DNA from: Asterionella formosa
Lineage: Eukaryota
Direction: 5' to 3'
Length of the DNA stretch: 42,218 nucleotides
NCBI GenBank assembly: GCA_002256025.1
Contig: NKIB01014599.1
Span: 1-42,218, forward strand
In this document: positions 2,674-41,999 of the stretch, piece after piece
Layout of the letters: every line of letters begins with the position of its first letter
Position numbering within the stretch: position 1 is the stretch's first letter
Made by a program: the position numbers and the translations under genes
The notes under the pieces: model-generated
Told to the model about the DNA's origin: nothing
Seen by the model: only the letters and a program-made list of their open reading frames with translations
Database searches by the model: none

Positions 2674-5143
2674 GGCGATTGAGAAACGAAGAAAAGAAGT
2701 TCGAAACAACGTTATTTGAGATGAAGCGCTAAACAAGCAAGTGTACAGCAGAGTCATATGTGGCGGGCGGGCGAGCGGCTGGAAGCTATCACAACCGAAA
2801 AATCCGAGTTGCTCAATCATGTCTCAAGAAAGGATTCAACATTCGTACATACACGTATGTAGGACTGGGATTTGGCAGTTGGTTTCTGTTTCCCGGGATG
2901 AGGATCACCAAACCGAAAATTTGAGGCATTATGTACTTCAAAGAAAGGCACGTCTGCTATTACCCGTCGCCTGTCGAAGAACGATAGTGTGGCATCAATC
3001 GAAAATAATCGATGATGAGTGCAGAATGAGCACCAGTAAACCAGTAATTGTACGTTGCTGTACGGCTGTGATGTATTATATGATTCGAAGCAAAGAATTC
3101 AATTTCTTGGTATTCATGTATGAATAAAGTATTTAATATATATTTCAACAGGCGGCCTCGAAGGGGAACTGAGCGATGAACACCGTTCGCATAATCGTTC
3201 GATGATGGCATCATTCTTGTTTGGCAGCACCGTACCATGGTACCAGGTAGGATACGTACGATGTAAGAATAACGGCCACATCCTCGACAATTTAAAACCT
3301 GTTCTGCACGCCTCACCGTCGACCAAAATCCTTAGCGTAGAGGTACCAGGTAGGTACTATAGTAAAGACCGGTACATCGGTAACCAGACATACAGACTAA
3401 TGGAATACCCCGTATGTACATAGGATATCAACTCAATTTTATTTTATTGAAGTTACCCCCGGGTACGTAGACTCAATTACCGACTTGTTCGACTGCCTTT
3501 CTGCAAATGTTCCTTTGTTTCCTGTCAATTCTTGAATGGTTCGCTTTGTTGCTCCAACTAATCCCTAGCCTCATAACTGGTGTTTGAATTCGGTTCTATG
3601 TAGATTGAGTAATTTGTTTACTCCAGGTCTCCCATAACTGCAGTAGAAGAGTTTTGCACTTTAGCCATGGGTGGGACTTCGGGTGGGTGAATTTTATCTA
3701 TAGACTATAAATTTGCATGGCTTGGTGGTCAACGATAGCTTCTTTGTTGACGCTGATTCGAAGAATTATGAGCTTTCTGCATTGAACTCTTGCATGGTTG
3801 TTCACTGACATGATATCAACTCTTCCATCACCCCCCTTGCTTCTCCTTGCATGATTTACATGTCGATTATTTCTTTCGAACTTCATCTTCAATTTTGCTA
3901 GGCTTGATTTAGCTCCTTTGGTTGTTGATCTTTCCTCAGCCTGCCTGCCTTCTGATTCCTCATGTTTCCCTGTTTTCAATGTGGCTGTGCTTCGTGCACA
4001 TCCCCTGTTTCCCTCCTCTATCAGCATAATCCACACTGGTCCCCTGGATTCATTGCTAATTTTTGTTGTATTGTTGGTTGAAGCTCATGTATCGACAAAA
4101 ATTTCACGCACAGGAATTGCCTTGCCTTTGTCACCATGACTGGATGATCGTTGGGTGGCTCTCTCCTTGGATAGGAGGTCACGGACACTTTCGCTTCGTT
4201 TTGGAGCCTGCATAACCTTATGTCCCTTCTTTTCGAGTATTGGGCGAACTACTAGTATTTAATTGATGAAGATTAGTGTCTTGGTCTTGAGCGGAAGGTT
4301 CACTTATTTGGCGAGGCGAAACAGATTGAACACCAGTGGTTTGGAAGTTCTTTTCCAATGACTTTCGTTGGCTGGGCTTTAGATAAAATCATCTGTGGGA
4401 GTCTCGCCGCAATCAACGATAATCACGTCATCATCACAGGACTTGATGAAGCCCGCGCCATCATGGTCCTCACTACCCGCCTAGTCTCATTCAGAGTGAG
4501 CAAATGACTTCGAAACGCGCCTCTGCTTGCAATTGCCTACTGCGTTTGGCCCCATCATGTTGTTACTCTATTGTGGAGTAGTTCAACAGAAAAAATCTGA
4601 AATCTGAGGAATGTTTTGCTTTTCATAAAAAGATTGTCAAAATGGAAAGTTTTATTGAAACTCAATTGTTTTTGAGGAAATTTAGATGCTCAAATAACTT
4701 GAATAATCTCTCCTTGAGGTTGCGGCGAAGGCATATATCCATTCCTAATAAAGTCAAGAACGCCATCCTTGTTCTTCCCATGCAATTGCTCTAAGAGAAG
4801 TAGCCACAAAATTAAGCATAACTCGTAAATGTTGCTAGAAGTACTGAAGCAAACCATAATTAAAGGAGTTGCAATAATGGGCGCACTTCGAAATACCAAA
4901 ATAATTTGTGCCAAAATTATTACATCACAAATATTCTTTGCTGATGTAATATATAATATCGTCAAGGCGCTCTGATACTCGAATTATTTTAGATAAATTA
5001 TCTGACAGTAAATATAAATTTAACTATAATTTACAACAGTAAAATTTTCATAGCGACGCATCTTCTGATGTGTTAGTATGCCTCCTCTTGTACGCACACT
5101 GTATACATGTTTTCCATAATTTATTCAGTGTCGGTCACGGACC

Positions 5144-6341
5144 ATGTTGGCTGACCTCTCATTTTCTGATGATGATGATATGATCATCACATTACTACTG
5201 CTAGCAGCATTTGATCTAGCAATAAACAAGACGGCATCATTTCATGAATGTTTGACTGTTGATGATATCAGAAGAAGAAGTGGCAAAATCCGGCGCCACA
5301 CACTACAGCATCCATTGTCAAGTCCATTCTGGACTTTGTTCAAGCAATAGCAAGCATGATGATGCCCTCATCACATTATGTGGGTTCGATCATGCTTCCT
5401 TCGGGCTCCTACACCAGCTATTCAAGCCTTATTTTGATTCCTTTACTCCCTGTAGAAAAAAAGGAATTCATTGTCAAGAATTCAACAACAAAATCTGGTC
5501 GACCCAGATTGCTGTGTTCCATCAGTCCTCTGGCACTTGGGCTGGCAGCATGGACTAGGACTCGTGGATCCTATATGATTCTTCAGATCATTTTCGGCTT
5601 AACTCATGGTTCCTTGAACATTTGGTTGCGGTTATCGAGGCGGATGATTGTCAAAGTGCTTCAGACTAATGAAGATGCCATTGTTCGACTACCTACTGCA
5701 GCCGAAACTACTTTATTTGCATCCATGATTCATAAGAAGTACCCTTTGGTAAATATTTTTGGGGAGCAATGGATGATCTGAAACTCACCCTGCAACGACC
5801 TGGAAATGAAAGGCAACAAAACAATTTCTACAATGGGTGGACTCATGAACACTATGTGACAAACTTGTTTCTTTTTTCTCCTGATGGAAAAATTCGTTTC
5901 TCTTATTTTAATGCACCTGGTGTCCTCCACAACTTTACCATGGCAATTTGGTCTTCAATCTATGATCAAAATGAAATGGTTTACAAGGATACAGGTAAAA
6001 AAGTAGTTGTGGATTCAGCATTTGCATCTAAGAAATCAAATGCAATGCTAAAATCCCATCAAAATAATTTGGATGCAAACGGTAATCTTCGACAAAGATT
6101 TGGCATAAATCGTCAAGCAACTTCAGTCAGGCAGTTGTCTGAATGGGAAATGAGGTGTCTTCAGGGGTCGTTTCCCAGGATGAAAGATATATTTCGTTAT
6201 GAAGAGAATGGTGAAAGGAAACTAATACTCCAAATGATTGTTTTACTATACAATTTTCGCGCCAGTCAAGTCGGCCAGAATCAAATTGCTTCGTTGTACC
6301 TGCCCTATTTGCATAGAAGTGCTAACAGATATGCATTTTAA
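5144..6341 (+). pseudogene. PIF/Harbinger (DDE_Tnp_4-type) transposase, frameshifted
   Basis: Harbinger motifs are spread over four ORF pieces: SSPFWTLF / DDALITLCGFDHASF / GRPRLL...WTRTRGS...IFGLT / MDDLKL...QNNFYNGWTHEHYV...FSPDG...NAPGVLHN...VVVDSAF...TSVRQLSEWEMRCLQGSFPR. Frameshifts fall near 5345, 5455 and 5765, and the usual HD motif reads HN. Confidence 0.9.
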
Positions 6342-6454
6342 GTCATAGAGTAATGTTTCAAAGACTTAGATTTACTATTTTCATTTAACTTATTCATCAT
6401 CACTACTACTGCTTTCGTTCTTGTCACCATTATTATCATTTGGGGTTTTAAATT

Positions 6455-6973
6455 CTATTGATGCAGATGAAGATGGTTGTGCATTTGTACTTGGCGTTTT
6501 GCAACAGTTGCTCCAGCGGAAACAGCAGGAGTTGTTTCTGGAGCGGAACAAGCAGGAGTACTATCCAAAGTTTCAACCACCGCTTCAGCATTGTCTTGAC
6601 TGTCCTCAAGTACCATGAATTCATCCTTGACATTGTTGCCATCTTCTATCCCAAGGTCTGTAGAATCAATTTCGCCACTAGCATCTGCTCTTTCCTCTAT
6701 TTTTCGGAATACTTGCTTAGCACATCGGACTTCAGCAGGACATGTTGGGTCACCAGTTGGTATTTTCACTTTATGTAGTTGTGCAAACTTTCGCCGAATT
6801 GAAGTTCCAGTCCGATCCTTGTCTGGAAAATTTTCATTGTGCTCGGATGCTACACATTCCCATTCATGTGATCCAATTGGAAGATGTGTCAGAACAGTGT
6901 AATACACATGATATAATATTTTTTTAATTTCGAAGTGCGCCCAATGATAACTGCTGTTGATCCCTCCTCCCAA
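6455..6973 (-). pseudogene. Myb/SANT-like (DUF6818-like) accessory protein of the Harbinger element, probably degenerate
   Basis: Motif LPIGSHEWECVASEHN...RTGTSIRRKFAQL...PTGDPTCPAEVRCAK. The ORF is convergent with the transposase, which fits the two-gene PIF/Harbinger layout. No clean ATG start. Confidence 0.75.
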
Positions 6974-7173
6974 AATTCTTTTCCGTTGTTGCCGTTAGAG
7001 ATAAAAATGTTTTCTTTGTTGATTAATTTAATTACATGACATACATTAAATCTATAAAATTAGTGTTGCTTGATGCTGTATCTGCAGCAAAGGCATATAA
7101 AACAACCAAAAATAGTTGATTTCTGATAAACATCATGTGTTATACCTACCACAGCCCATTGCTTAAGCTATCT

Positions 7174-20339: not shown

Positions 20340-22075
20340 TAGTAAATTGCTATGTTAATTAGTAAATCCATGAAAATTTTCTATTTTTAGCTTTATAAAC
20401 CCCCCATTGTTCTTGTACATATTCTGGTGCATGGTAATCTTGCAGAAAAAAGATTGAAACAATTGAGCAAGTGGTCCATCACCAATGCATTTTTCTTCCC
20501 CTTTGTCGTTCTTCATCTCGTCCTCACTCATGATGGTTGCTCCTCTGTCTATTTTACTGTTTCTTGTATACTGCATCTAAGGGGCGATCTTAGCAGAGAT
20601 GCAAAAATTAAAAATATGTTGCTCAACTCAATTTTTTGTGTTTCACACATCCGGGTGGTAAGTTGCTTCCAGCAACCCATTTTTGTTGCTCCGAAATGGC
20701 TGTGTATCTGCGTGTGTCACTACTTATGCAGCGTTAAGCAACTCTATTGGCAACCACTTTTCGCCTGGAGAATGATACCATAAACCTTTCAAGTTCTTGT
20801 TCTTATTTAGTGCTTAATGACCAATGCACTTTTAGGATGATCCAGCAGATTCGATTTTTCTCTTTTATTTTCTTAATCTTCTGTAACTGTACTGCCAAAC
20901 TGGAGGCCTGTATGTTTTCCCAGATCATGCGAATTAGCATCATGAGGGTTAGCGTCTCATTTTGTTGACCAGTGTACATGTGCTGAAGTGCTCCATGCAT
21001 TGACAGAAACAATCTTCCAGGCAGGGCTTGTTAACCAAAGGTATCAGCAGGCCGTGGAATTGTGATATGCGGGCTGTGTTGGTACCATACTTGTTGTTTT
21101 CTTTTGCTTGTTTTCTAACTGTTTCGAAAATTAATAATGGCAGCATGAGGAATACTACCGAGCACTTCCTTTTCTCTCAATTTTATACAGGTAAGTGTAT
21201 TCCTCTTGAATTGTGATCTTCCTCCTCTTTTTTCTTTTTACTATTCTCGCAACCTCATAAATTCTGCTGCCGAATGAACAAAACATTCTTTAGTTTTTCT
21301 GAAATGATGGAGCTGGCTACAATGTTTGTTTCCTTTGGACGACCACCATAGGGCAAGTTGTGGTGGCAGCAATGGTGGTGCTGCTTTCGATTGATAAAGG
21401 TCATGGTGATGGCAGGAGAATGACTAGAGCTTGTCGATGTAATCTTAGTAGTAGTAGAGAATCATGATTATTGCTGCTATAGTAGATGGAAATTTTCATA
21501 CCTTCTATTGTCAAAGCAGACATTTTGCTCTGCAATTCTTCGTGTACAGCAACCCTGGCATGTTCGTTTGAACTTGTGGTACCACCAGATAGCCTCATTT
21601 TCTTCAGAAAGCATTTCACTTTTATTGTAGTCACCTAAGGGACAAGGTTATGTACATCGTGCACTGCATGGGAAATTGCGCCATTTGGTAGTTTTCCATT
21701 AGTGTTTGCTTTCAACGCTCCTTCCATAGTTTTAGTAGAGATGGTCAATGTGCAATATTGAATCATTTTGGTTTTGATCTGCTAATAGATTGAGCCGCCT
21801 TGCCCAAAGGAAGAGTAGATTTCTTCTTCAGCATCATTTGGGTGCATATTGTGACAAGCCTGTTGTCATTTGCTTTTTGTTCACCATTTTTCCCTTCTTT
21901 TTGACGTTTCTGCGCTTTGACGAATTAATTAGCATAAAACCTACCTCACTACCGGTAAGTGGTGTACAGTCGATTTCGGAGGTTCAAATTGATGATATTC
22001 TCCATATATTGAGACTATTTTAAGCGCCTTTCCGGCGTGCTCATGTAATTTTTTCAGCAAAATGACCGCTACTTA
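20340..22075 (-). mobile_element. Degenerate transposon-like remnant with one TIR-like end
   Basis: Stop-riddled coding-like fragments on the minus strand. The segment ends in AGCAAAATGACCGCTACTTA + CTG (22056-22078), which matches the TIR and target of the approx. 100-bp MITE family. The left boundary is not defined. Confidence 0.4.
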
Positions 22076-22470
22076 CTGGTACCTAGTAAGTAGGGTACCT
22101 GGTACCACGTACCGTGTAGTCTATACTCTTGGAGTACCGGGTAGATAAACATACCGGTATGTATTGTGCAGACTACCTGGTACCTGGTGCGTACCTGTAG
22201 ACGAACGCGAGTTGCTTTTCCTCAAGGAAAGAATCCTTGTTTGCTTGCTTACTGGAAGTGACTACCGGTAATATGATGATGGTACCTGGTACCTGATGGC
22301 CTGGAATATAAAATAAGCCTTTCGAAATTTATTTTTCTGTCCTCAGTAATTGCTACCAGCAAAATCATTGCTTGGAGACCTCTTTTTGACCAGAACAATC
22401 GTGCTTCACCGTACAAGTCAATACCCCATTTGAATTAACTGCTAGAAGTGCGAAAGTTACAGTCATAGCC

Positions 22471-24156
22471 ATGAGTGACCTCATCGAAGTGAACAACTAC
22501 ATTGGAGGAAGGTTTGTCCCGCCCTCGACTGGAAAGTATTTGATTGTGGAGAACCCAGCTGATATGTCTGAAGTCGGAAATGTTGCCCTTTCGTCAGGTA
22601 TGACATGTTTTGTGCTTGTATTTGCATGCGTGTTGATGGAGCCAAGAGCCTTACACAGTCTCATTGTTGCCCTTGCATTTCATCCTCCTATGCAGCTGAT
22701 GATGTCGCAATTGCCGTGGAAGCAGCGAGCCAAGCATTCCCGCAATGGTCAAGCCTTACCATCAAGGCTCGAGCTTCTTTGATGCTCAAGTTTCATGCTC
22801 TGGTTCAAGCACATGCCACAGAGTTGGCGGAGCTTATCGTCCTTGAAAATGGAAAGAACGTTGTGGAAGCCCTCGCAGATGTTGCCAAAGGGAACGAGAC
22901 AGTCGAATGGGCTTGCTCGTTGCCTCAGCTGGCTCAAGGAAATATTTTAAAAGTTTCCTCGGAAGTATCATGTGAGGACCGGCGGGTCCCTCTAGGTGTC
23001 ATCGCCAGTATTGTTCCGTTCAACTTTCCCCTCATGGTTCCAATGTGGACCGTGCCCATTGCTCTGGTGCTTGGAAATACGGTTGTGCTCAAACCTAGCG
23101 AAAAAGTACCACTGACTATGCGTCGAGTCGCTGAACTGTTCAAGGAAGCCGGGTTTCCGGACGGCGTCTTCAACATGGTCCAAGGAACGAAAGAGACAGT
23201 GGAAGCCCTCATGGATCACCCAGACGTTAAAGCTGTTACCTTTGTTGGATCGAGTCCGGTGGCACAGGCTGTGGCGTCGCGTTGCCGTACTTTAAACAAG
23301 CGAGTCACAGCGCTGGGTGGGGCCAAGAACCACTTGGTCGCATTGCCAGATTGTGAAGTGGATGGAGCCTCCTCGGATATATGTGTTTCATTTGCTGGTT
23401 GCGCAGGCCAACGTTGCATGGCTGCGTCTGTTTTGCTCTTAGTGGGGCCCCAAGATGAGTTGCTACACCAACTTGTAGATAAGGCTTCAAAACTGCAGCC
23501 TGGAAAGGGACCAGGCCAAGTGGGCCCAGTGATTGATGGGACTTCCTATAACAAAGTCCTTTCGTACATAGACGACGCGGAAACGAATGGTGTCAAGATC
23601 TTGCTCGATGGACGATCATGGAAACAAGAAAAGGGCCACTGGATTGGTCCCACAATTTTGTTGCATGAGTCGTCGGCTGACAAGGCAATCAAGGAAGAAA
23701 TATTTGGACCGGTTCTTTCGGTCTTTATTTGCAAATCATGGGAGGAAGCAATTGCTATTGAGAATGCAAATCCTTTTGGCAATGCTGCAAGTGTTTATAC
23801 GACCAATGGTGGCAATTCTGAGTGGTTTACGTCAAAATTCCGAGCAAGCATGCTCGGAGTCAATGTACGTACCTGAGGTAGTGCACTTTCTCGTGCCAGC
23901 TCTTACAGATTATTCTCACTTCATGTCTTTCTCCTTCCAGATTGGCATTCCAGTCCCTCGTGAACCGTTTAGTTTCGGTGGATTGTATGGAACTCAGAGC
24001 AAGTATGGAGACATGGACATTACAGGTGATGGTGGGATGGAATTCTTTACAAACCGTATTAAGATCTCGAGCAAATGGCCAATCGTCCGACCCGCGGAGA
24101 TACATCAGAATGGAACTGGACCCACCGATCACGCTAATTTTGCAGGTACAATGTAA
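22471..24156 (+). CDS. ALDH6A1: Methylmalonate-semialdehyde dehydrogenase (acylating), ALDH6 family
   Basis: Exons 22471-22597, 22696-23864 and 23941-24156 with GT-AG introns. Motifs PFNFPLMVPMW, KPSEKVP, FVGSS, GGAKNH, GCAGQRCMA (catalytic Cys), EEIFGP and GVNIGIPVPREPFSFGG. Confidence 0.96.
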
Positions 24157-24541
24157 TTAAATCGTTTGGACGTAGTAATAACCGGCACAGCATACAGGTT
24201 TTTCGTATACTATAGAAACTTGGAAATGAATAAAACCACCCATGTTCAACGTGTATGTTCAGTCAATTAAAATTTAGCGTTTGATCTTATCATAAAACAT
24301 AAAGTTAATTTGGTAAGTGGCACTGAACCAGTTGAAGTCAATGTGGCGCCTGAAACGCTGTCATGGTGGATTCAACCTTTGTAGAGCAATGAAACACGGA
24401 AACAAGAGTGGGAGTTTAAACACTGATTACAATTCCAAAAGACTATTTCCGCGTATCGAGAGACAGCGTTGTCTATAGAGCGCTGGCAGTGGCTGGAAAG
24501 GATACATAAATATATATAACGAATTTAACGAAGGAGACAAC

Positions 24542-25077
24542 TCAGTCCAAGGCCGCCGCGCCCTCGGCGAGAACATCGCTCTCAGTTGAAATAATTGGTA
24601 GTTCCTCGGTGTCAACTTCACTTCTTTCCGCTCCCTTTCCGATTGCCTTCCTACTATTCATGTGGATCCCCATGAAATTGAAAATGACATGAGTCAACAT
24701 GAAACGCCAAAACGCTAGTATTAGATTTTCCTGGTTCGCGCTGAGAGGAACCGGCTTCTCCGGTGGCACCTCGTCTATCTCGGGCAACTCTGATAAGTCA
24801 AGTTCTCTTGACTTTTCCTTTTCTTCTGGCATCAGCACATCTTCAGGAATGGGCATCGGCACATCTTCAGGAATGGGCATTGACAAAACAGAGGGAAACA
24901 ACATTATAGTAAGCAGGAGTGGAAATTATGCACAAGAATAGCAATTCGTTGTAGTAACGAATTTCCATTGAGCTTACCTTGTTCTGCCTCAGGAACATTT
25001 TTGGGAAAGCAGCATAGAAGGAGATTGAAGCATTTCGTCTCCCTTTTTGGTGTTAGGTCCTCAATAGGGAAACTCAT
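24542..25077 (-). CDS. Small hypothetical protein, probably two exons
   Basis: ATG at 25077, exon to 24978 with a strong GTAAGC donor, then an acidic ORF ending at 24542. The acceptor position (near 24840-24900) is uncertain. Includes a 24-bp tandem duplication at 24828-24875 (MPIPEDV x2). Confidence 0.5.
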
Positions 25078-25391
25078 GTTGACTTGTCCAAGCAGAAGCG
25101 ATGCTGTGATCCTTTCTTCTTTTCCTTTTTGAGCGACCATAAACTATTACCGGTACGTAAATAACAAACCGGTACCTGGTACCCGGTGGCACACGATAGT
25201 ATCCAATTCGTACTACAATACTGGTAATTCTTGTACACCATAAAGGTACCGGTTCCCGGTACCAGGTACTCCGTCTTGTTCGTCGTGGTCTTGGCGAGGC
25301 CAACAAGATGGCATCGCCCCCAGCAATACTGTAATGAATACAGTACTCCGTACCTGGTACCAGGGTACCAGTACGTCGTACCTAGTACCAG

Positions 25392-25492
25392 CAAGAAGTT
25401 GCGGTAATTGTCCTGACGCTAAAAAAGCAATGTTTAGCTTTTTTATCCCATATTAAATAAATTGTTTTGTTAAGCAAAATGACCGCAACTTG
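25392..25492. mobile_element. MITE family A, copy 1 (101 bp), TSD CAG
   Basis: CAG|CAAGAAGTTGCGGTAATT...AGCAAAATGACCGCAACTTG|CAG. The reconstructed empty site reads GTACCAGGTACC. Confidence 0.75.
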
Positions 25493-25545
25493 CAGGTACC
25501 AGGGTATGGTGCCTCTGGTACTATTCACCAAAGTCATTACCAGAG

Positions 25546-25614
25546 GAAGGTCCGGTAATCGAGAGATTTAGCTTATTCTTGTCTTTAGTAAAATCCGTAT
25601 TTTACCGGACCTTG
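25546..25614. mobile_element. MITE family B copy (about 69 bp)
   Basis: GAAGGTCCGGTAATCGAGA...TTTTACCGGACCTT. Same TIRs as, and similar interior to, 40510-40573. The TSD is not preserved. Confidence 0.7.
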
Positions 25615-26533
25615 TACCCAGTATACCTGATACAACTGGTAACTGGTACTACCTTGTAGAGGTATGCCAACATACATAATGCATTTGTACCCAAGTGTAA
25701 ACAGAAGGAACTAAGCTAGAGGTAAACAGTGATCCCTATTAGCACTGGTAAGTATCCTCTCTCACCATGGAGCACGATGTAAAAATGTCAATTAAATTTC
25801 ATATCACATTAAAGCTATCCAATATTTGCACTCGTGCCTGCCCTGCAGTTGTCAGGATTAAAAAAGCAGGTTCTGGGTAATTATAGTGAATTGGTAATAA
25901 GTGCAGTGAATTTGTAATCAGGTAATCATTGGGTAATTATGAGCTTAATTAAATAATTAGTGTATCTATATTAACTCATAGCTAAAGGGATTCACAAGCG
26001 CCATTATGAGAAGGATTCACAAGGACCTTAATGTGAAGGTCATTAGATGTCCTACTAACATTGACGGCACAGCTATGCTAGAAGTACATATATACCAATA
26101 GTTATCATGTACCAGTAGCATGAAGTTGCAGGTACACAATGCAATATGTACCTATCATATGAGCTACATACTAGTAACACCTACAAATCATGATCAGTCC
26201 CGTGTACATGTACAGTATGTACTACATATGCTGGGTACCACCATGGAAGTAGTCATGTGCATAATTTTAAAGGGTACACCTATCACTTAGGGTTGACGTG
26301 GTATATCTACACCGTGTGTATTGTGTAAATTTCTACAGTGCGAGTAAACAAGTATATGGTCTGTATAGAAAAGCCTATAAAGTTAACGTTGTATAGGGCT
26401 TATACCATCTAATATAGTAGCTATATCTAGCGTGATGTATACAGTACCATGGGTCAGGGCCCAAATATTTTCAGCTAAACCATCAAATGAGTCGATTTCA
26501 GCGCCACTGCAGCTACACATTATCAAACAAGCT

Positions 26534-26975
26534 ACAAGCAGATGAACAAATCACAAGAGTTGACAAGAAAATCATGGAGATAGACTGAAATGACCGAAAT
26601 CCACCCAAAAGCATCCTTAAATTGAGTAAAGCTTTTGACAATCTCCACGCATCCAAATCAGATCCATACAGACAGACCCTTTCTGTCCCACTGTATCTAC
26701 ACAGTACATACTAATGAGCAACAAACAGAGGAAAGAACCTCAAGAATTGACAAGAAACTCATGGAAATAGACCAAAATGACCAAAATCCCAACAGCATCA
26801 TTAAATTGAGTAAAGCTTTTGACAATGTCCACGCATCCAAATAAGATCCAGCCAGACAGACAGTTTCTGCCCCACTGTATCTATACAGTACATACAACAA
26901 ACAGATGAAAGAATCACAATAATTGACAAGAAACTCAGCCACGGAGATAGACCAAAATCCAACCAATGCACAGCA
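26534..26975. repeat. Tandem repeat, approx. 180-187-bp unit, about 2.4 copies
   Basis: Units start near 26534, 26721 and 26897. Shared blocks include TTGACAAGAAA.TCA, TTAAATTGAGTAAAGCTTTTGACAAT.TCCACGCATCCAAAT and CCCACTGTATCTA.ACAGTACATAC. Confidence 0.9.
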
Positions 26976-27532
26976 TCATTCAAATGATGAATGGCCACGC
27001 TCAGGCAAGTTTTATTAAAGGCATATGGAAACAAACAAAGAAAAAAATTAATCAAGTTTCTAGACCCACCACCTGCAAGACAACTGTTATTCATGGACCT
27101 GGCTACAAACACTGATGGCAATTTTTTCCTATGCAAGGGAGTGACCACCCAAACCTCTCCACCACCCCACCAAGTTCTTTTCTGGGCCATGGAGCGCAAT
27201 TAATACAATCATGTAGCAAGCTAGGCTAGTAGTAATGCAATATAAAAATTATTGACATACATGATGCATTTACTTTTAGACTACATCATAGCAGCGCACC
27301 TACTACATACTTGGTGGGTAGTAGACTATTGTTACCTTGTACTCTTAGCAGTTTCTTTCTGGCTTTACAGGCTGATATGAGTTTCCCTTTGAGGCCCAAT
27401 ATGAAGGGAGTCTATCTTTTCTGGCAGGCATGAGACGATCTATTGGAGTGCGTCGAAACTGAAAATGTGCACATAAAACGTGCGGAACCGGACCTTCCAG
27501 GTGGTAGCAGGAAGCACTATCTTAGCTACCTG

Positions 27533-27637
27533 CAAGTTGCGTTAATTTTGCTCAACTAAAGATTTAGCTATCTATAAAAGTTTAGCTAAATTTATCCAAG
27601 ATTAAAATGTTAGTTTAAGCAAAATGACCGCAACTTG
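27533..27637. mobile_element. MITE family A, copy 2 (105 bp), TSD CTG
   Basis: CTG|CAAGTTGCGTTAATTTTGCT...AGCAAAATGACCGCAACTTG|CTG. The reconstructed empty site reads TACCTGGT. Confidence 0.8.
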
Positions 27638-27881
27638 CTGGTGCTTGCTTACAAGGTTCTGATACCCCAGTACTCTTCCCTTTTCCACCGACCGGTAACT
27701 GGTAATACTTCCACCAGGGATACCACATCCTTTACCAGTTACGAGTACCAGGGTACCTGGTACCAGGTTCCTATTACGCGTACCTGGTACCCTGGTACCT
27801 GGTGCCATGTACATATAGTACCAGGTATCTGGTGTGGTGTGCTCACTTTTCTTGATGCCCTTGGTGTGATGCCAGTAGGCG

Positions 27882-28775
27882 ATGACAATGACGAAGAGCA
27901 TATCAAGCGTATTTTTCTTGGTCACTCTTGTTGCCTCGTCCCATGCATTTCGTCCCACGTGCCAATCAATGCGCCCAGCTACATCATCTGCGATAAATCT
28001 CAATAACTTGTTCAACTTCAATAAGCCGGAGCCAGAGAAAAAAGAAGAAGAATTTCAAGATGCTGCATATGACAACGATGACCCAGTCGAAAAGATGTTC
28101 AGTTTTTTCTTCGGAAAAAGGGAGGAATCACCCATGGGAATGGCTCGATTTGGATCTGGTAGATTTCCAGAGCAATATCCCGCAACAATAGACGAGTGGG
28201 CGGACCCGGTCCAAGGCGACGATCCTGAAATGGCGAAACTTCGCCCTTTGCTCAAAAATACAAACTTGGAAACCCGTCGACTGAAATTAACTTACTCGGC
28301 GAATAAAAATGGATGGAATGCTGAAAAGTTCCATCAAGCCGTTGACAAACTAGGTGGAGCCTTGGTTGTTTGCACGACTACATCAGGACTTGTTTGTGGC
28401 GGATACAATCCAAAGGGATGGGTAGGCTATGGCGAAGCTCGCGGCTCGATTGCTGCTTTTCTTTACGTATTTAACAGTGATGGAAGTGTAACGAAGCTAA
28501 GGAAGGTTGGTGGACCAGGTCTTGCTCAAATGGACATGCCCGAAGCGGGTCCTTCATTTGGAGCCGATTCTTTGGTGATTCCACTAGGCAGGGACAAACC
28601 CAAACAGGCAAGAAGTAAACTTGGTTCCTACTTCGAACGCTTTCCCGACGGCACCAATAGTCTATTTGGAAAAACTGCATCAGCTGAACTGAAGGAACTC
28701 AAAGTCTACCATGGTGTCTATGCACAAGGTGAATACATTCCATTCACCGACGCCGAGCCTTTTGCCCTGTACTAA
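27882..28775 (+). CDS. TLDc-domain protein, probably plastid-targeted
   Basis: Signal peptide ending ASSHA-FRP followed by a Ser/Thr/Arg transit-like stretch. TLDc motifs L.YSANKNGWNAEKFHQAVD, GGYNPKGW, AFLY and GPSFGADSL. Confidence 0.9.
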   Translation: MTMTKSISSVFFLVTLVASSHAFRPTCQSMRPATSSAINLNNLFNFNKPEPEKKEEEFQDAAYDNDDPVEKMFSFFFGKREESPMGMARFGSGRFPEQYPATIDEWADPVQGDDPEMAKLRPLLKNTNLETRRLKLTYSANKNGWNAEKFHQAVDKLGGALVVCTTTSGLVCGGYNPKGWVGYGEARGSIAAFLYVFNSDGSVTKLRKVGGPGLAQMDMPEAGPSFGADSLVIPLGRDKPKQARSKLGSYFERFPDGTNSLFGKTASAELKELKVYHGVYAQGEYIPFTDAEPFALY

Positions 28776-39644: not shown

Positions 39645-40509
39645 GGCTGGCTGTGGCTAGTTCCATTCTTTGGAGAAATATTTTCATAGCATGAATGGGG
39701 AATGGGCTTCTCCGAGGTTCCTGCTGTACATAGAATGACAACATAATGCCCATAAGTACTGAGAATTTGTTTACCATGTCTGTTCTTTATTTTGGACCAC
39801 AGTCTATGATACCAGTAGTAGAACATATAATGCAGTTCACTGAAAAGTTCACTTGTGTGAAAACTAGTATCTGGTGGAGTACCATCAAGGTGTGGTAAAT
39901 TTGCTGAAATGGCGATTTGGACATTGCAGATGATACTTAAGCAAATATACTTGCTAGATCGCACAACAGTTATCTTTTAAGTGTGGTATAATCATTTTGA
40001 ATTCCTTTTCTTCTGGGACTAGATTTGGCTTGAACCATTTTAGGGTGAAACTCATTCCCCCAATCTCCAACCTCCCAATCAAAATATAATTGGGGGATTT
40101 TACCAGATAACAAGATTCCATTTTGGTCAGAGGCACAAACAGATACACAGAGCATGTTTACCAACAGCTAATGACTGTACATATGTGATGATAATACATA
40201 AATGATACGTGAAGGATAAAATATAAATGTACATGTATACATTCATGAAGACAAGACATGCCCAAGGTGATCTCTTGCCTGCAAGTACACATGTGTACAA
40301 GAAGGCAAGTAGCTGCCAAGAATGGTATTCCTATTATTGAGGCAAGCAATTCACAAACTACAAGGTACTATCAGGAGGTGCCATAGCGAATATCAATCAA
40401 TGATGACCTATGCATATGGCACAGCAGTATGGCCACAGATTACCAGTTACATTAGATGGTTCAAGCCCAATATAACGTTACCGGTAACCTGTTACGCTCT
40501 TCTACACAG

Positions 40510-40573
40510 GAAGGTCCGGTAATCGAGATAATTAACTTAATCTTAAGTACAAAACGTGTTTTACCAGACCTTC
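40510..40573. mobile_element. MITE family B copy (64 bp), TSD CAG
   Basis: CAG|GAAGGTCCGGTAA...TTACCAGACCTTC|CAG. The 13-bp TIR has one mismatch. Confidence 0.8.
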
Positions 40574-41999
40574 CAGACTACCGGTATGTTTTATATTCTT
40601 GTTCTTACTCTCGCTGTAGATACTTACTACACAAGCAATTGAGACAGTGTACCGGTACATATATATGTACATGTCAACCCCAAGTGAAAGGTGTTCCCAT
40701 TTACATTCTGCACATGATCAACATGGTACCAGGTACCTGGTACCCATATATACTAGTCCACATGCATACATGTACTCGGGACTGATCATGATCAGTACGT
40801 GATTCCATGCAGATAGCTACCTACTAGCGTGTCTCATGTACTAAGTACATATTGCATTATGTATGCGAGGCTGTATGACTCGTCAAAATCATTAGTACAT
40901 ATGTATCTCAAGAGTAGACGTAGCAATGCTCCTAAGCTTAAGGTTCCTGCATTTGAACCCCTAGCTCGAGGTAGGGGTAAAATAATAATATTTAGTCAGA
41001 ATATTCAAACACACACTTCTTGCGAATAAATTATAAATGTATATCGCTAAACAGAGCTTTCACCAATAGACACTCTTTCCATATGCTTAGATACAGTCAT
41101 TGATCAAAGTAAGGGTATAGATCAACTCTATATAACATCAGTATGATATAGAATCTGGTCAGAAACTGCAGAAAGGACCTTTTTCGCGCCGAAATTTAAC
41201 TTCTGGGGGTATGTGAAGATTACCTAGTATGTACTTAACTCTTCTTCAAACCCTGCCAACATTGAGCTATTGTTGTCCAAAAATTTGACAAAATAAGGGC
41301 GCCCCGAAGCCAAAGTTGGCAAAAGTAAGAAAAGTTGGCAAAAGAAAGCAAATCTTGCTTACATTGCTTTATTCTCTCCAAACTCAAAATTGTTCTCCTT
41401 TTCCAACCAAAGTGATGAAAACAACCAATAATGAACGGTTCTATAACAATTAGGATTTGAAATATTTGCTTGCTAGTGTCATCATATGTAACAACTACCA
41501 GTAGTCATACCCAATATAACTATTATACAATTCCACCATATGAATGCTGGTGGCTGGAATCATGCTGGTGGTGCTCAGGGTACCATGGTAACCAAGGTAG
41601 CACTCGTAAGCACTTGTATATAATTATTCGATTCTTTTCTAAAGATAATATATTTACCAGTATAGCACTACGGAGTCACTGTGTACTGGTAGTGGTCATG
41701 AGCAAGTGGAGTATGCATGGTGCATCATGTCATCTCAGCCTTGACCATGACGAAATCAATACATATCTTCATGGAAAATGAGAATGACGCTTTGCTATTG
41801 GGTACATATATTGAGCACGATGTAGAAAATACGATCGTAAAAGAATAGTTGTGATAACTCTAATGTTGATAACGAAAATTGAAATATCCGATAGCGCATT
41901 TTTTAATGATTATTTTATAGCTTCACAGTTCAAAATGCTGATACTACTATCAGCAGATTTGACACTTTCACAGTACATCTAAGACGCGAAATACGCCAC

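What the first reader, a model, noticed from the sequence alone, without database searches (positions are those of the whole stretch)
25389..27640. Approx. 100-bp MITE family inserted at the centre of the TACCWGGT promoter motif (CWG TSD)
Seen: two copies (25392-25492 and 27533-27637) with TIR consensus CAAGTTGCGGTCATTTTGCT. One is flanked by CAG/CAG and the other by CTG/CTG. Removing each element plus one TSD restores GTACCAGGTACC and TACCTGGT. An orphan end at 22056-22075 is also followed by CTGGTACC. Established: some Harbinger elements, such as zebrafish Harbinger3_DR, duplicate CWG inside an ACCWGGT-centred target. Inference: a target-specific Harbinger-type system uses the promoter arrays as landing pads, which would explain why mobile DNA accumulates between divergent promoters here.
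Basis: partly seen in the sequence, partly recalled or inferred. Interest (0 to 1): 0.72.

Follow-up and report, generated by a model that had tools for sequence, protein, structure and literature searches.

The report
Target-specific miniature transposons near algal promoters
These are two old copies of an abundant gene-less jumping element of a freshwater alga that inserts into one short palindromic DNA word found mostly just upstream of genes; the enzyme that moved it was not found, and the word looks partly like a scar left by other jumping elements.

Summary
Both copies belong to an 88-bp MITE family (window copies 101 and 105 bp). The genome has 2,339 matches to the 20-bp TIR and 0 to the control. 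The flanking CWG is duplicated directly in 48 of 50 listed copies, and empty paralogous sites carry one CAG. The target is the palindrome (G)TAC-CWG-GTA(C). Two longer non-coding families share the TIR, and a sister family with GAAGG ends also favours CWG. MITEs lie 5' of the nearest long ORF in 36 of 45 cases.

The Harbinger link is not shown. None of 52 Harbinger-type transposase loci examined is bounded by this TIR, and NuwaI, the known CWG-duplicating group, starts with GGG, not CAAG. 'Promoter motif' is shown as a location only: related units also arise as insertions at lone TA sites, like excision scars. The copies are old and were present in four other samples.

This scan noted what is probably the same family, and the scar idea, on other contigs of this genome (e1-7575910, e1-7576080). 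Verdict: a new variant of a known kind.

The parts
25392..25492 (+). MITE copy 1 (101 bp), member of the 88-bp CAAG family; left TIR degenerate
   Evidence: left junction covered by contigs of X2 and X8, right junction by X2, X6 and X7
25389..25391 (+). left target duplication CAG of copy 1
25493..25495 (+). right target duplication CAG of copy 1
27533..27637 (+). MITE copy 2 (105 bp, 17-bp internal insertion), 245 bp upstream of the TLDc gene
   Evidence: left junction covered by contigs of X2, X6 and X8
27530..27532 (+). left target duplication CTG of copy 2
27638..27640 (+). right target duplication CTG of copy 2
25546..25614 (+). 69-bp MITE of the sister family with TIR GAAGGTCCGGTAA; flanks not CWG in this copy
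27409..27497 (-). long-type end of the GAAGG sister family, flanked by CWG
40510..40573 (+). 64-bp GAAGG-family MITE flanked by CAG/CAG
41327..41975 (.). internal part of an AB-family element
25148..25391 (.). array of TA-CC(W)GG-TA / TA-CCAG-TA units upstream of the minus-strand gene; copy 1 sits at its edge
27690..27827 (.). array of the same units upstream of the TLDc gene
27882..28775 (+). TLDc-domain gene, right-hand gene of the divergent pair
   Evidence: PF07534, E 4e-11
24542..25079 (-). gene without a Pfam match, left-hand gene of the divergent pair (start and intron inferred)

Best explanation
A clade of non-autonomous cut-and-paste DNA transposons: an 88-bp MITE, a 1.0-2.1-kb 'AB' family and a 0.7-1.5-kb 'CD' family, all with the 20-bp TIR CAAGTTGCGGT[A/C]ATTTTGCT, and probably a sister family with GAAGG ends.

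Shown: they insert in either orientation at the centre of the palindrome (G)TAC-CWG-GTA(C) and duplicate CWG.

Inferred: a DDE transposase supplied in trans bound the TIRs, read the palindromic target and cut it with a 3-nt stagger; fill-in made the duplication. The target is several-fold denser 5' of genes than 3', so insertions collect near promoters. The target units probably arise, at least in part, as scars at TA sites left by another transposon. The burst is old and the autonomous parent is lost, decayed or was not reached. The likeliest enzyme class is PHIS/Harbinger of the Nuwa type (about 55%), but this is unproven.
For: Direct duplication of the W: 48 of 50 listed copies concordant, p 2e-12 against 50%; 130 strict copies with CWG on both sides. 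AB/CD elements: 7 of 10 complete pairs with identical triplets, and an 8.86-kb AB copy keeps CAG/CAG. Empty sites: the MITE at L088:1975-2061 sits in an AB element, and 20 hits span the site without it, the best with a single CAG. Flank profile on 164 ends: CWG in 120 against 3% background; TAC before it in 69 of 120. 5' bias: MITEs 36 of 45 (p 7e-5); motif 1.75 against 0.37 per kb over 152 long ORFs; 50 in 8.0 kb against 2 in 5.0 kb in the window. No ORF in the AB or CD consensus. Age: median 91% identity to a reference copy over 73 copies; a young GGG Harbinger abuts truncated family copies in L118 and L125, which reads as later insertion into them. For Nuwa: CWG is the defining TSD of NuwaI (PMC4482050); the ACCWGGT core is shared with Harbinger3_DR (PMC3016246); the sister family starts with G; a diatom family, Harbinger4_TP, lies near Nuwa (PMC12730594); a resident PIF-type element has C-starting ends (L193, L196).
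Against: No transposase is linked to the TIR: 0 of 52 DDE_Tnp_4 loci examined, out of 150 scored and 423 candidates; 41 of the 52 show a GGG- or CGG-type TIR. NuwaI ends are usually GGG and the group was found only in animals. CA..TG ends with a 2-5-bp TSD are the pattern of the CMCT clade. About a quarter of ends (44 of 164) lack an exact CWG, and among the 38 MITEs with canonical ends only 20 have identical triplets. I read this as later mutation, but the non-G flanks were mirrored on the other side in only 3 of 27 rows. A formal alternative (ends GCAAG, 1-bp duplication) gives the same sequence and is not excluded.
Confidence: 0.75

Rival explanations
1. Same elements and target, but the mobilising enzyme belongs to the CMCT clade (EnSpm/Plavaka/Transib/RAG1-like) or another undescribed DDE lineage with CA..TG ends. 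It would be a sequence-specific member of a group not known for this target.
For: The ends CAAG..CTTG and a 3-bp TSD fit the CMCT pattern '5'-CA..TG-3', 2 to 5 bp' (PMC12730594, section read). No Harbinger locus carries the TIR. Earlier notes report Plavaka and a RAG1-fold relic in this genome (unchecked).
Against: EnSpm ends are CAC, and Plavaka ends TGT or CATCA. The sister family starts with G. CWG with an ACCWGGT core is documented for PHIS. Searches with RAG1 and Transposase_21 found nothing but were uninformative, since their controls did not ring either.
Confidence: 0.35
2. The TACCWGGTA arrays are mainly mutational scars, that is footprints of a TA-targeting Tc1/mariner/pogo element that works in open promoter chromatin, and not selected promoter elements. 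The CAAG family then uses another transposon's scars as its target.
For: Sample differences at lone TA sites: TA to TACCGGTA at 25144 (X2, X7) and TA to TACCTGGTA at 25213 (X2), with no adjacent unit to slip from. 12 of 308 insertions in MITE/AB/CD copies add such a unit, most at a TA. The words are 10- to 94-fold over-represented in the DNA held (that DNA was selected around these elements).
Against: Most observed gains are the 6-bp CCGG/CTGG types; the 7-bp CCWGG type, the main target, was seen about twice. The direction of the sample differences is unknown. I did not look for the TA element. 275 of 308 insertions are of other kinds. The strong 5' bias also fits a factor-binding site. Scar and cis-element are not exclusive.
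Confidence: 0.55
3. One reading: TACCWGGT is a functional promoter motif, an active Harbinger system uses it as a landing pad, and this accounts for the mobile DNA between the divergent promoters.
For: 5' enrichment of motif and MITEs; 9 of 15 window genes have TACCWGGTA within 600 bp upstream and none downstream; four CWG-family pieces lie in this one intergenic region.
Against: No function test; units are gained and lost; no young burst and no empty allele among the rows shown for four runs; no Harbinger partner; CWG families cover only about 365 of 2,800 bp here.
Confidence: 0.2
4. The elements are TA-duplicating (Tc1/mariner-like) with ends CCWGCAAG, so the CWG belongs to the TIR.
For: The outer flank is often TAC-CWG, so TA lies next to a CCWG.
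Against: A TIR would make the two W positions complementary; they are identical on the same strand in 48 of 50 copies. Empty sites keep one CWG.
Confidence: 0.02

Closest known systems
NuwaI group of the PHIS superfamily (Han et al. 2015, PMC4482050; parts 1-3 of 4 of the text read, supplements searched for five terms)
   Same: 3-bp CWG target duplication; TIR length within 12-61 bp
   Different: NuwaI TIRs usually start GGG and were found in 16 animal genomes only (three diatom genomes were in the survey list). Here the TIRs start CAAG (sister GAAG), the host is an alga, and no two-ORF autonomous element was found.
Zebrafish Harbinger3_DR (PMC3016246, two passages read)
   Same: inserts at the centre of a palindromic target with core ACCWGGT
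   Different: its target continues AAAC..CTTT, here (G)T..A(C); its ends and enzyme are known, here the enzyme is unknown
CMCT clade: EnSpm/CACTA, Plavaka, ESTA, Transib (Kojima 2025, PMC12730594; outline and sections 3.1 and 3.2.2 read)
   Same: CA..TG termini and a TSD of 2-5 bp
   Different: EnSpm ends CAC, PlavakaA TGT, PlavakaB CATCA, ESTA duplicates TA; no CWG-centred target is described in the sections read
Tourist-type MITEs mobilised by PIF/Harbinger (recalled)
   Same: short, AT-rich, high-copy, near genes, 3-bp TSD
   Different: TSD is TWA and the ends start with G; here CWG and CAAG

Membership tests
MITE (non-autonomous TIR element) | short, TIRs, TSD, no coding capacity, high copy number | tested here: met
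   88 bp modal length; 20-bp TIR; CWG TSD in 48 of 50; 2,339 TIR matches, all families together
NuwaI (PHIS) | TSD 5'-CWG-3' | tested here: met
   definition
NuwaI (PHIS) | TIRs usually begin GGG | tested here: not met
   ends are CAAG, sister GAAG
NuwaI (PHIS) | autonomous copy with DDE transposase plus Myb/SANT ORF between the TIRs | tested here: inconclusive
   0 of 52 DDE_Tnp_4 loci examined are bounded by the TIR; 98 of 150 scored hits were not examined
NuwaI (PHIS) | transposase falls in the Nuwa clade | not testable with these tools
   no linked transposase to place
Canonical PIF/Harbinger | TSD TWA; first TIR base A or G | tested here: not met
   TSD CWG, first base C; resident canonical families show GGG with TWA
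CMCT clade | termini CA..TG, TSD 2-5 bp | tested here: met
   CAAG..CTTG, 3 bp; definition; not met by the GAAGG sister family
CMCT clade | transposase with C(2)C and H(3-4)H motifs | tested here: inconclusive
   no linked protein; PF12940 and PF02992 searches gave no hit and no control hit; Plavaka was not searched
EnSpm/CACTA | termini CAC..GTG | tested here: not met
   third base is A
Tc1/mariner (Stowaway-type) | TA duplication | tested here: not met
   W is duplicated directly in 48 of 50 copies, so CWG is not part of the TIR

The most novel reading that the evidence does not exclude
An undescribed sequence-specific DDE transposon lineage (CAAG/GAAG ends, CWG duplication, 9-11-bp palindromic target) whose preferred target is the excision scar of an unrelated TA-targeting transposon. 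It would reach promoter-side DNA by following another element's footprints, a two-tier targeting chain that has written hundreds of insertions next to algal genes.
Probability: 0.3. Interest if true: 0.72.

Novelty: new variant of a known kind. Interest (0 to 1): 0.47.

Why it matters
CWG-duplicating, sequence-specific cut-and-paste elements are described from animals, with GGG ends (PMC4482050). An algal clade with the same target core but CAAG/GAAG ends would either extend the Nuwa group to a new host lineage or mark a convergent target in another superfamily. A transposase with a 9-11-bp palindromic, mostly non-coding target would be a useful insertion tool for microalgae. If the target words are scars of another transposon, this is a testable case of one mobile element steering another towards promoters. 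The limits: all copies seen are old and gene-less, the enzyme is missing, and no effect on expression is shown. I found no paper on this family in eight library searches; Repbase and subscription journals were not searched.

Tried and rejected
1. Looking for the autonomous parent:
- 20 stretches of up to 10 kb next to unpaired long-type ends: only host genes and other repeats.
- An 8.86-kb element with A and B ends and CAG/CAG (L144): its length comes from nested insertions, and its ORF fragments have no Pfam match above cut-off and occur in other contexts.
- The window's own Harbinger near 4.9-6.9 kb: different TIR (GGGCGCAC) and AAT flanks.
- A DDE hit 2 kb inside a GAAGG end on C14125: it has its own GGGCG TIRs and AGT flanks.
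- A TIR next to a Harbinger in L184: separate elements.
- RAG1 and Transposase_21 searches: nothing, uninformative.
- JGI metagenomes: one 1-kb contig. Viral contigs: none.
- The 380-bp segment shared by AB and CD: stops in all frames and no clear codon bias; the two consensus sequences may have contaminated each other.
- 98 scored Harbinger hits, and the loci of the 96 GAAGG ends other than those already held, stayed unexamined.
2. Insertion polymorphism: contigs of four runs from four studies cover junctions of both copies; no joint that skips either MITE was among the rows shown (115 joints not shown; contigs drop rare variants). The right junction of copy 2 was not among the pieces listed.
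3. 3-bp against 1-bp duplication through non-G flanks: 1 full match and 2 third-base matches in 27 rows (26 distinct elements); weak.
4. Slips: one search used a gap sized for 100-bp copies and found 7 atypical ones; one search had histone H2A on the wrong strand and was replaced.
5. Rfam: no match in 21500-28500.

Full report
Setting. The window is contig C14599 of a 68.4-Mb, 15,436-contig eukaryotic assembly, with intron-bearing genes. Runs that hold it are labelled algae or freshwater metagenome where labelled. Earlier notes of this scan call the host a diatom; I did not test that.

Observation. The TIR 20-mer occurs 4 times in the window against 0.02 expected, and 2,339 times in the genome at up to 2 mismatches against 0 for the reversed control. 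That count covers both ends, all families and duplicate contigs. The typical copy is 88 bp (21 of 45). The window copies are 101 and 105 bp because of small insertions, and copy 1 has a damaged left end. The end at 22056-22075 is not a MITE end but the decayed end of a longer family.

A clade, not one family. The same 20-bp TIR bounds a 1.0-2.1-kb family (AB) and a 0.7-1.5-kb family (CD). Neither consensus has an ORF (longest 73 and 88 codons). A sister family with ends GAAGGTCCGGTA has 64-69-bp MITEs and longer ends. Three pieces lie in the window, 8 of 14 ends held have CWG, and 96 genome sites match its long-type end (CWG was part of that pattern).

The duplication. Among 130 strict MITEs with CWG on both sides, the 50 listed have the same W on both sides in 48 cases (p 2e-12). 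CWG is therefore a direct duplication and not part of the TIR, which rules out a TA-duplicating element with CCWG ends. Without a flank filter, 20 of 38 MITEs have identical triplets, and most others differ from a CWG pair by one or two bases. For AB/CD it is 7 of 10. One MITE landed in an AB element, and 20 hits in other copies span the site without it, the best with a single CAG. Of 74 MITEs tested, this was the only convincing empty site; six others gave hits that I set aside as self- or array matches. The sequence cannot formally tell CAAG ends with a 3-bp duplication from GCAAG ends with a 1-bp one. The test on non-G flanks was weak (3 of 27 rows mirrored); I prefer 3 bp because it has precedent.

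The target. Over 164 distinct ends (loci chosen by flank-biased patterns left out), 120 have CWG against 3% background. TAC precedes it in 69 of 120, against 5.4% of CWG in all DNA held and 15.3% within 300 bp of the ends. The target is thus the palindrome (G)TAC-CWG-GTA(C), read beyond the triplet, and used in both orientations (11 CTG, 9 CAG).

Position. In the window, TACCWGGTA occurs 23 times in 8.0 kb of 5' flanks, 0 times in 5.0 kb of 3' flanks and 0 times in gene spans; the wider word set gives 50, 2 and 0. Over 152 long ORFs in the loci held, the density is 1.75 against 0.37 per kb, and MITEs lie 5' of the nearest long ORF in 36 of 45 cases, from 75 MITEs. These use ORF ends as gene ends, and the loci are not a random sample. 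The promoter-side location is well supported.

Is the word a promoter motif? Not shown. Earlier notes (e1-7576080, e1-7570232) suggested excision scars, and I tested that in part. Other samples differ from the window by TA to TACCGGTA at 25144 and TA to TACCTGGTA at 25213, at lone TA sites with no neighbouring unit. Inside MITE, AB and CD copies, 12 of 308 insertions add such a unit, 21 are tandem duplications and 275 are other. So units do arise de novo, mostly the 6-bp types. This is what footprints of a TA-targeting element would look like (mechanism recalled from Tc1/mariner), but I did not look for that element, and a scar can still bind a factor.

The enzyme. The genome has many Harbinger-type transposases (150 scored of 423 candidates). 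I examined 52 loci, many of them one family. 41 show GGG- or CGG-type TIRs with TWA, ANT or TA-type flanks, and none is bounded by the CAAG TIR. In two loci a young GGG family abuts truncated CAAG-family copies, which reads as later insertion into them. Twenty long stretches beside unpaired ends, an 8.86-kb nested AB copy, and scans of metagenome and viral contigs gave no partner. For PHIS/Nuwa: CWG defines NuwaI (PMC4482050), Harbinger3_DR uses AAACACCWGGTCTTT (PMC3016246), the sister family starts with G, and a resident PIF-type element has C-starting ends. Against: NuwaI starts GGG and is listed for animals only, while CA..TG with a 2-5-bp duplication is the CMCT pattern (PMC12730594). I put PHIS at about 55%, CMCT or another lineage at about 35%. 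The family works like NuwaI but fails one of its listed features, so I do not file it as a member.

Age. MITE copies have median 91% identity to a reference copy (73 copies); AB and CD copies are mostly 70-85% alike. Contigs from four studies cover junctions of both window copies, and no empty allele was among the rows shown. The burst is old.

Does it explain the repeat load here? Only in part. The two MITEs and two sister pieces cover about 365 bp of a 2.8-kb divergent region; other repeats fill much of the rest.

Verdict. A real, abundant, strongly target-specific family of non-autonomous DNA transposons with a promoter-side bias. The duplication type is known from animal Nuwa elements; the ends and the host are new as far as eight searches of the paper library show. 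The third supplement of PMC4482050 was cut when stored, and the supplements of PMC12730594 were not opened; either could hold related ends. The scan reported what is probably the same family on another contig (e1-7575910). The missing enzyme and the scar question are what would raise it. New variant of a known kind, interest 0.47.

Noticed in passing
window 4879-6942: Decayed two-gene Harbinger (DDE_Tnp_4 at 5256-6341, convergent DUF6818 ORF at 6455-6994) with TIR GGGCGCACTTCGAAAT and AAT flanks, i.e. ANT (Pangu/Harbinger2-like); unrelated to the CAAG family.
   Followed up: partly
L196:514-4073 and L193:1932: PIF-type (Plant_tran) element with ends CGGTGC..GCACCG and flanks CTTA / TAAG, which suggests a TA duplication inside CTTAAG, like the fungal PHISTA group.
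   Followed up: partly
L108-L127 (contig ends, e.g. C191:6-410): A young, near-identical Harbinger family with TIR GGGTCGTTCTTATCA and TWA/TCA/TGA flanks breaks about 50 contigs at the same poly-A position; it looks recently active.
   Followed up: partly
window 25546-25614, 27409-27497, 40510-40573: Sister CWG-flanked family with TIR GAAGGTCCGGTA; 96 genome matches to its long-type end.
   Followed up: partly
L050:530 and L060:1501: A short MITE variant flanked by an apparent 5-bp repeat CAAGG on both sides, in TAC-CAAGG-TAC.
   Followed up: no
L144:1128-6579: A 5.4-kb insertion without obvious TIRs inside an AB element, with broken ORFs of no Pfam family; pieces recur in L135, L194, L132 and L230.
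   Followed up: partly
window 26120-26430 and 40440-40880: Two inverted copies of a repeat; the second has extra GTACC-type units where the first has few, which suggests arrays grow inside repeats.
   Followed up: partly
window 26496-26987: Repeat with three units of about 184 bp, also in L030, L074 and L183.
   Followed up: no
L005:1520-1524; L002:1434-1625; L025:1501-1714: Family members stand head to head or within 20-40 bp of each other in the same array, i.e. repeated hits on neighbouring targets.
   Followed up: no
L258:316-699: A 380-bp near-perfect hairpin (arms of about 165 bp) whose inner part is bounded by TACCTG and CAGGTA.
   Followed up: no
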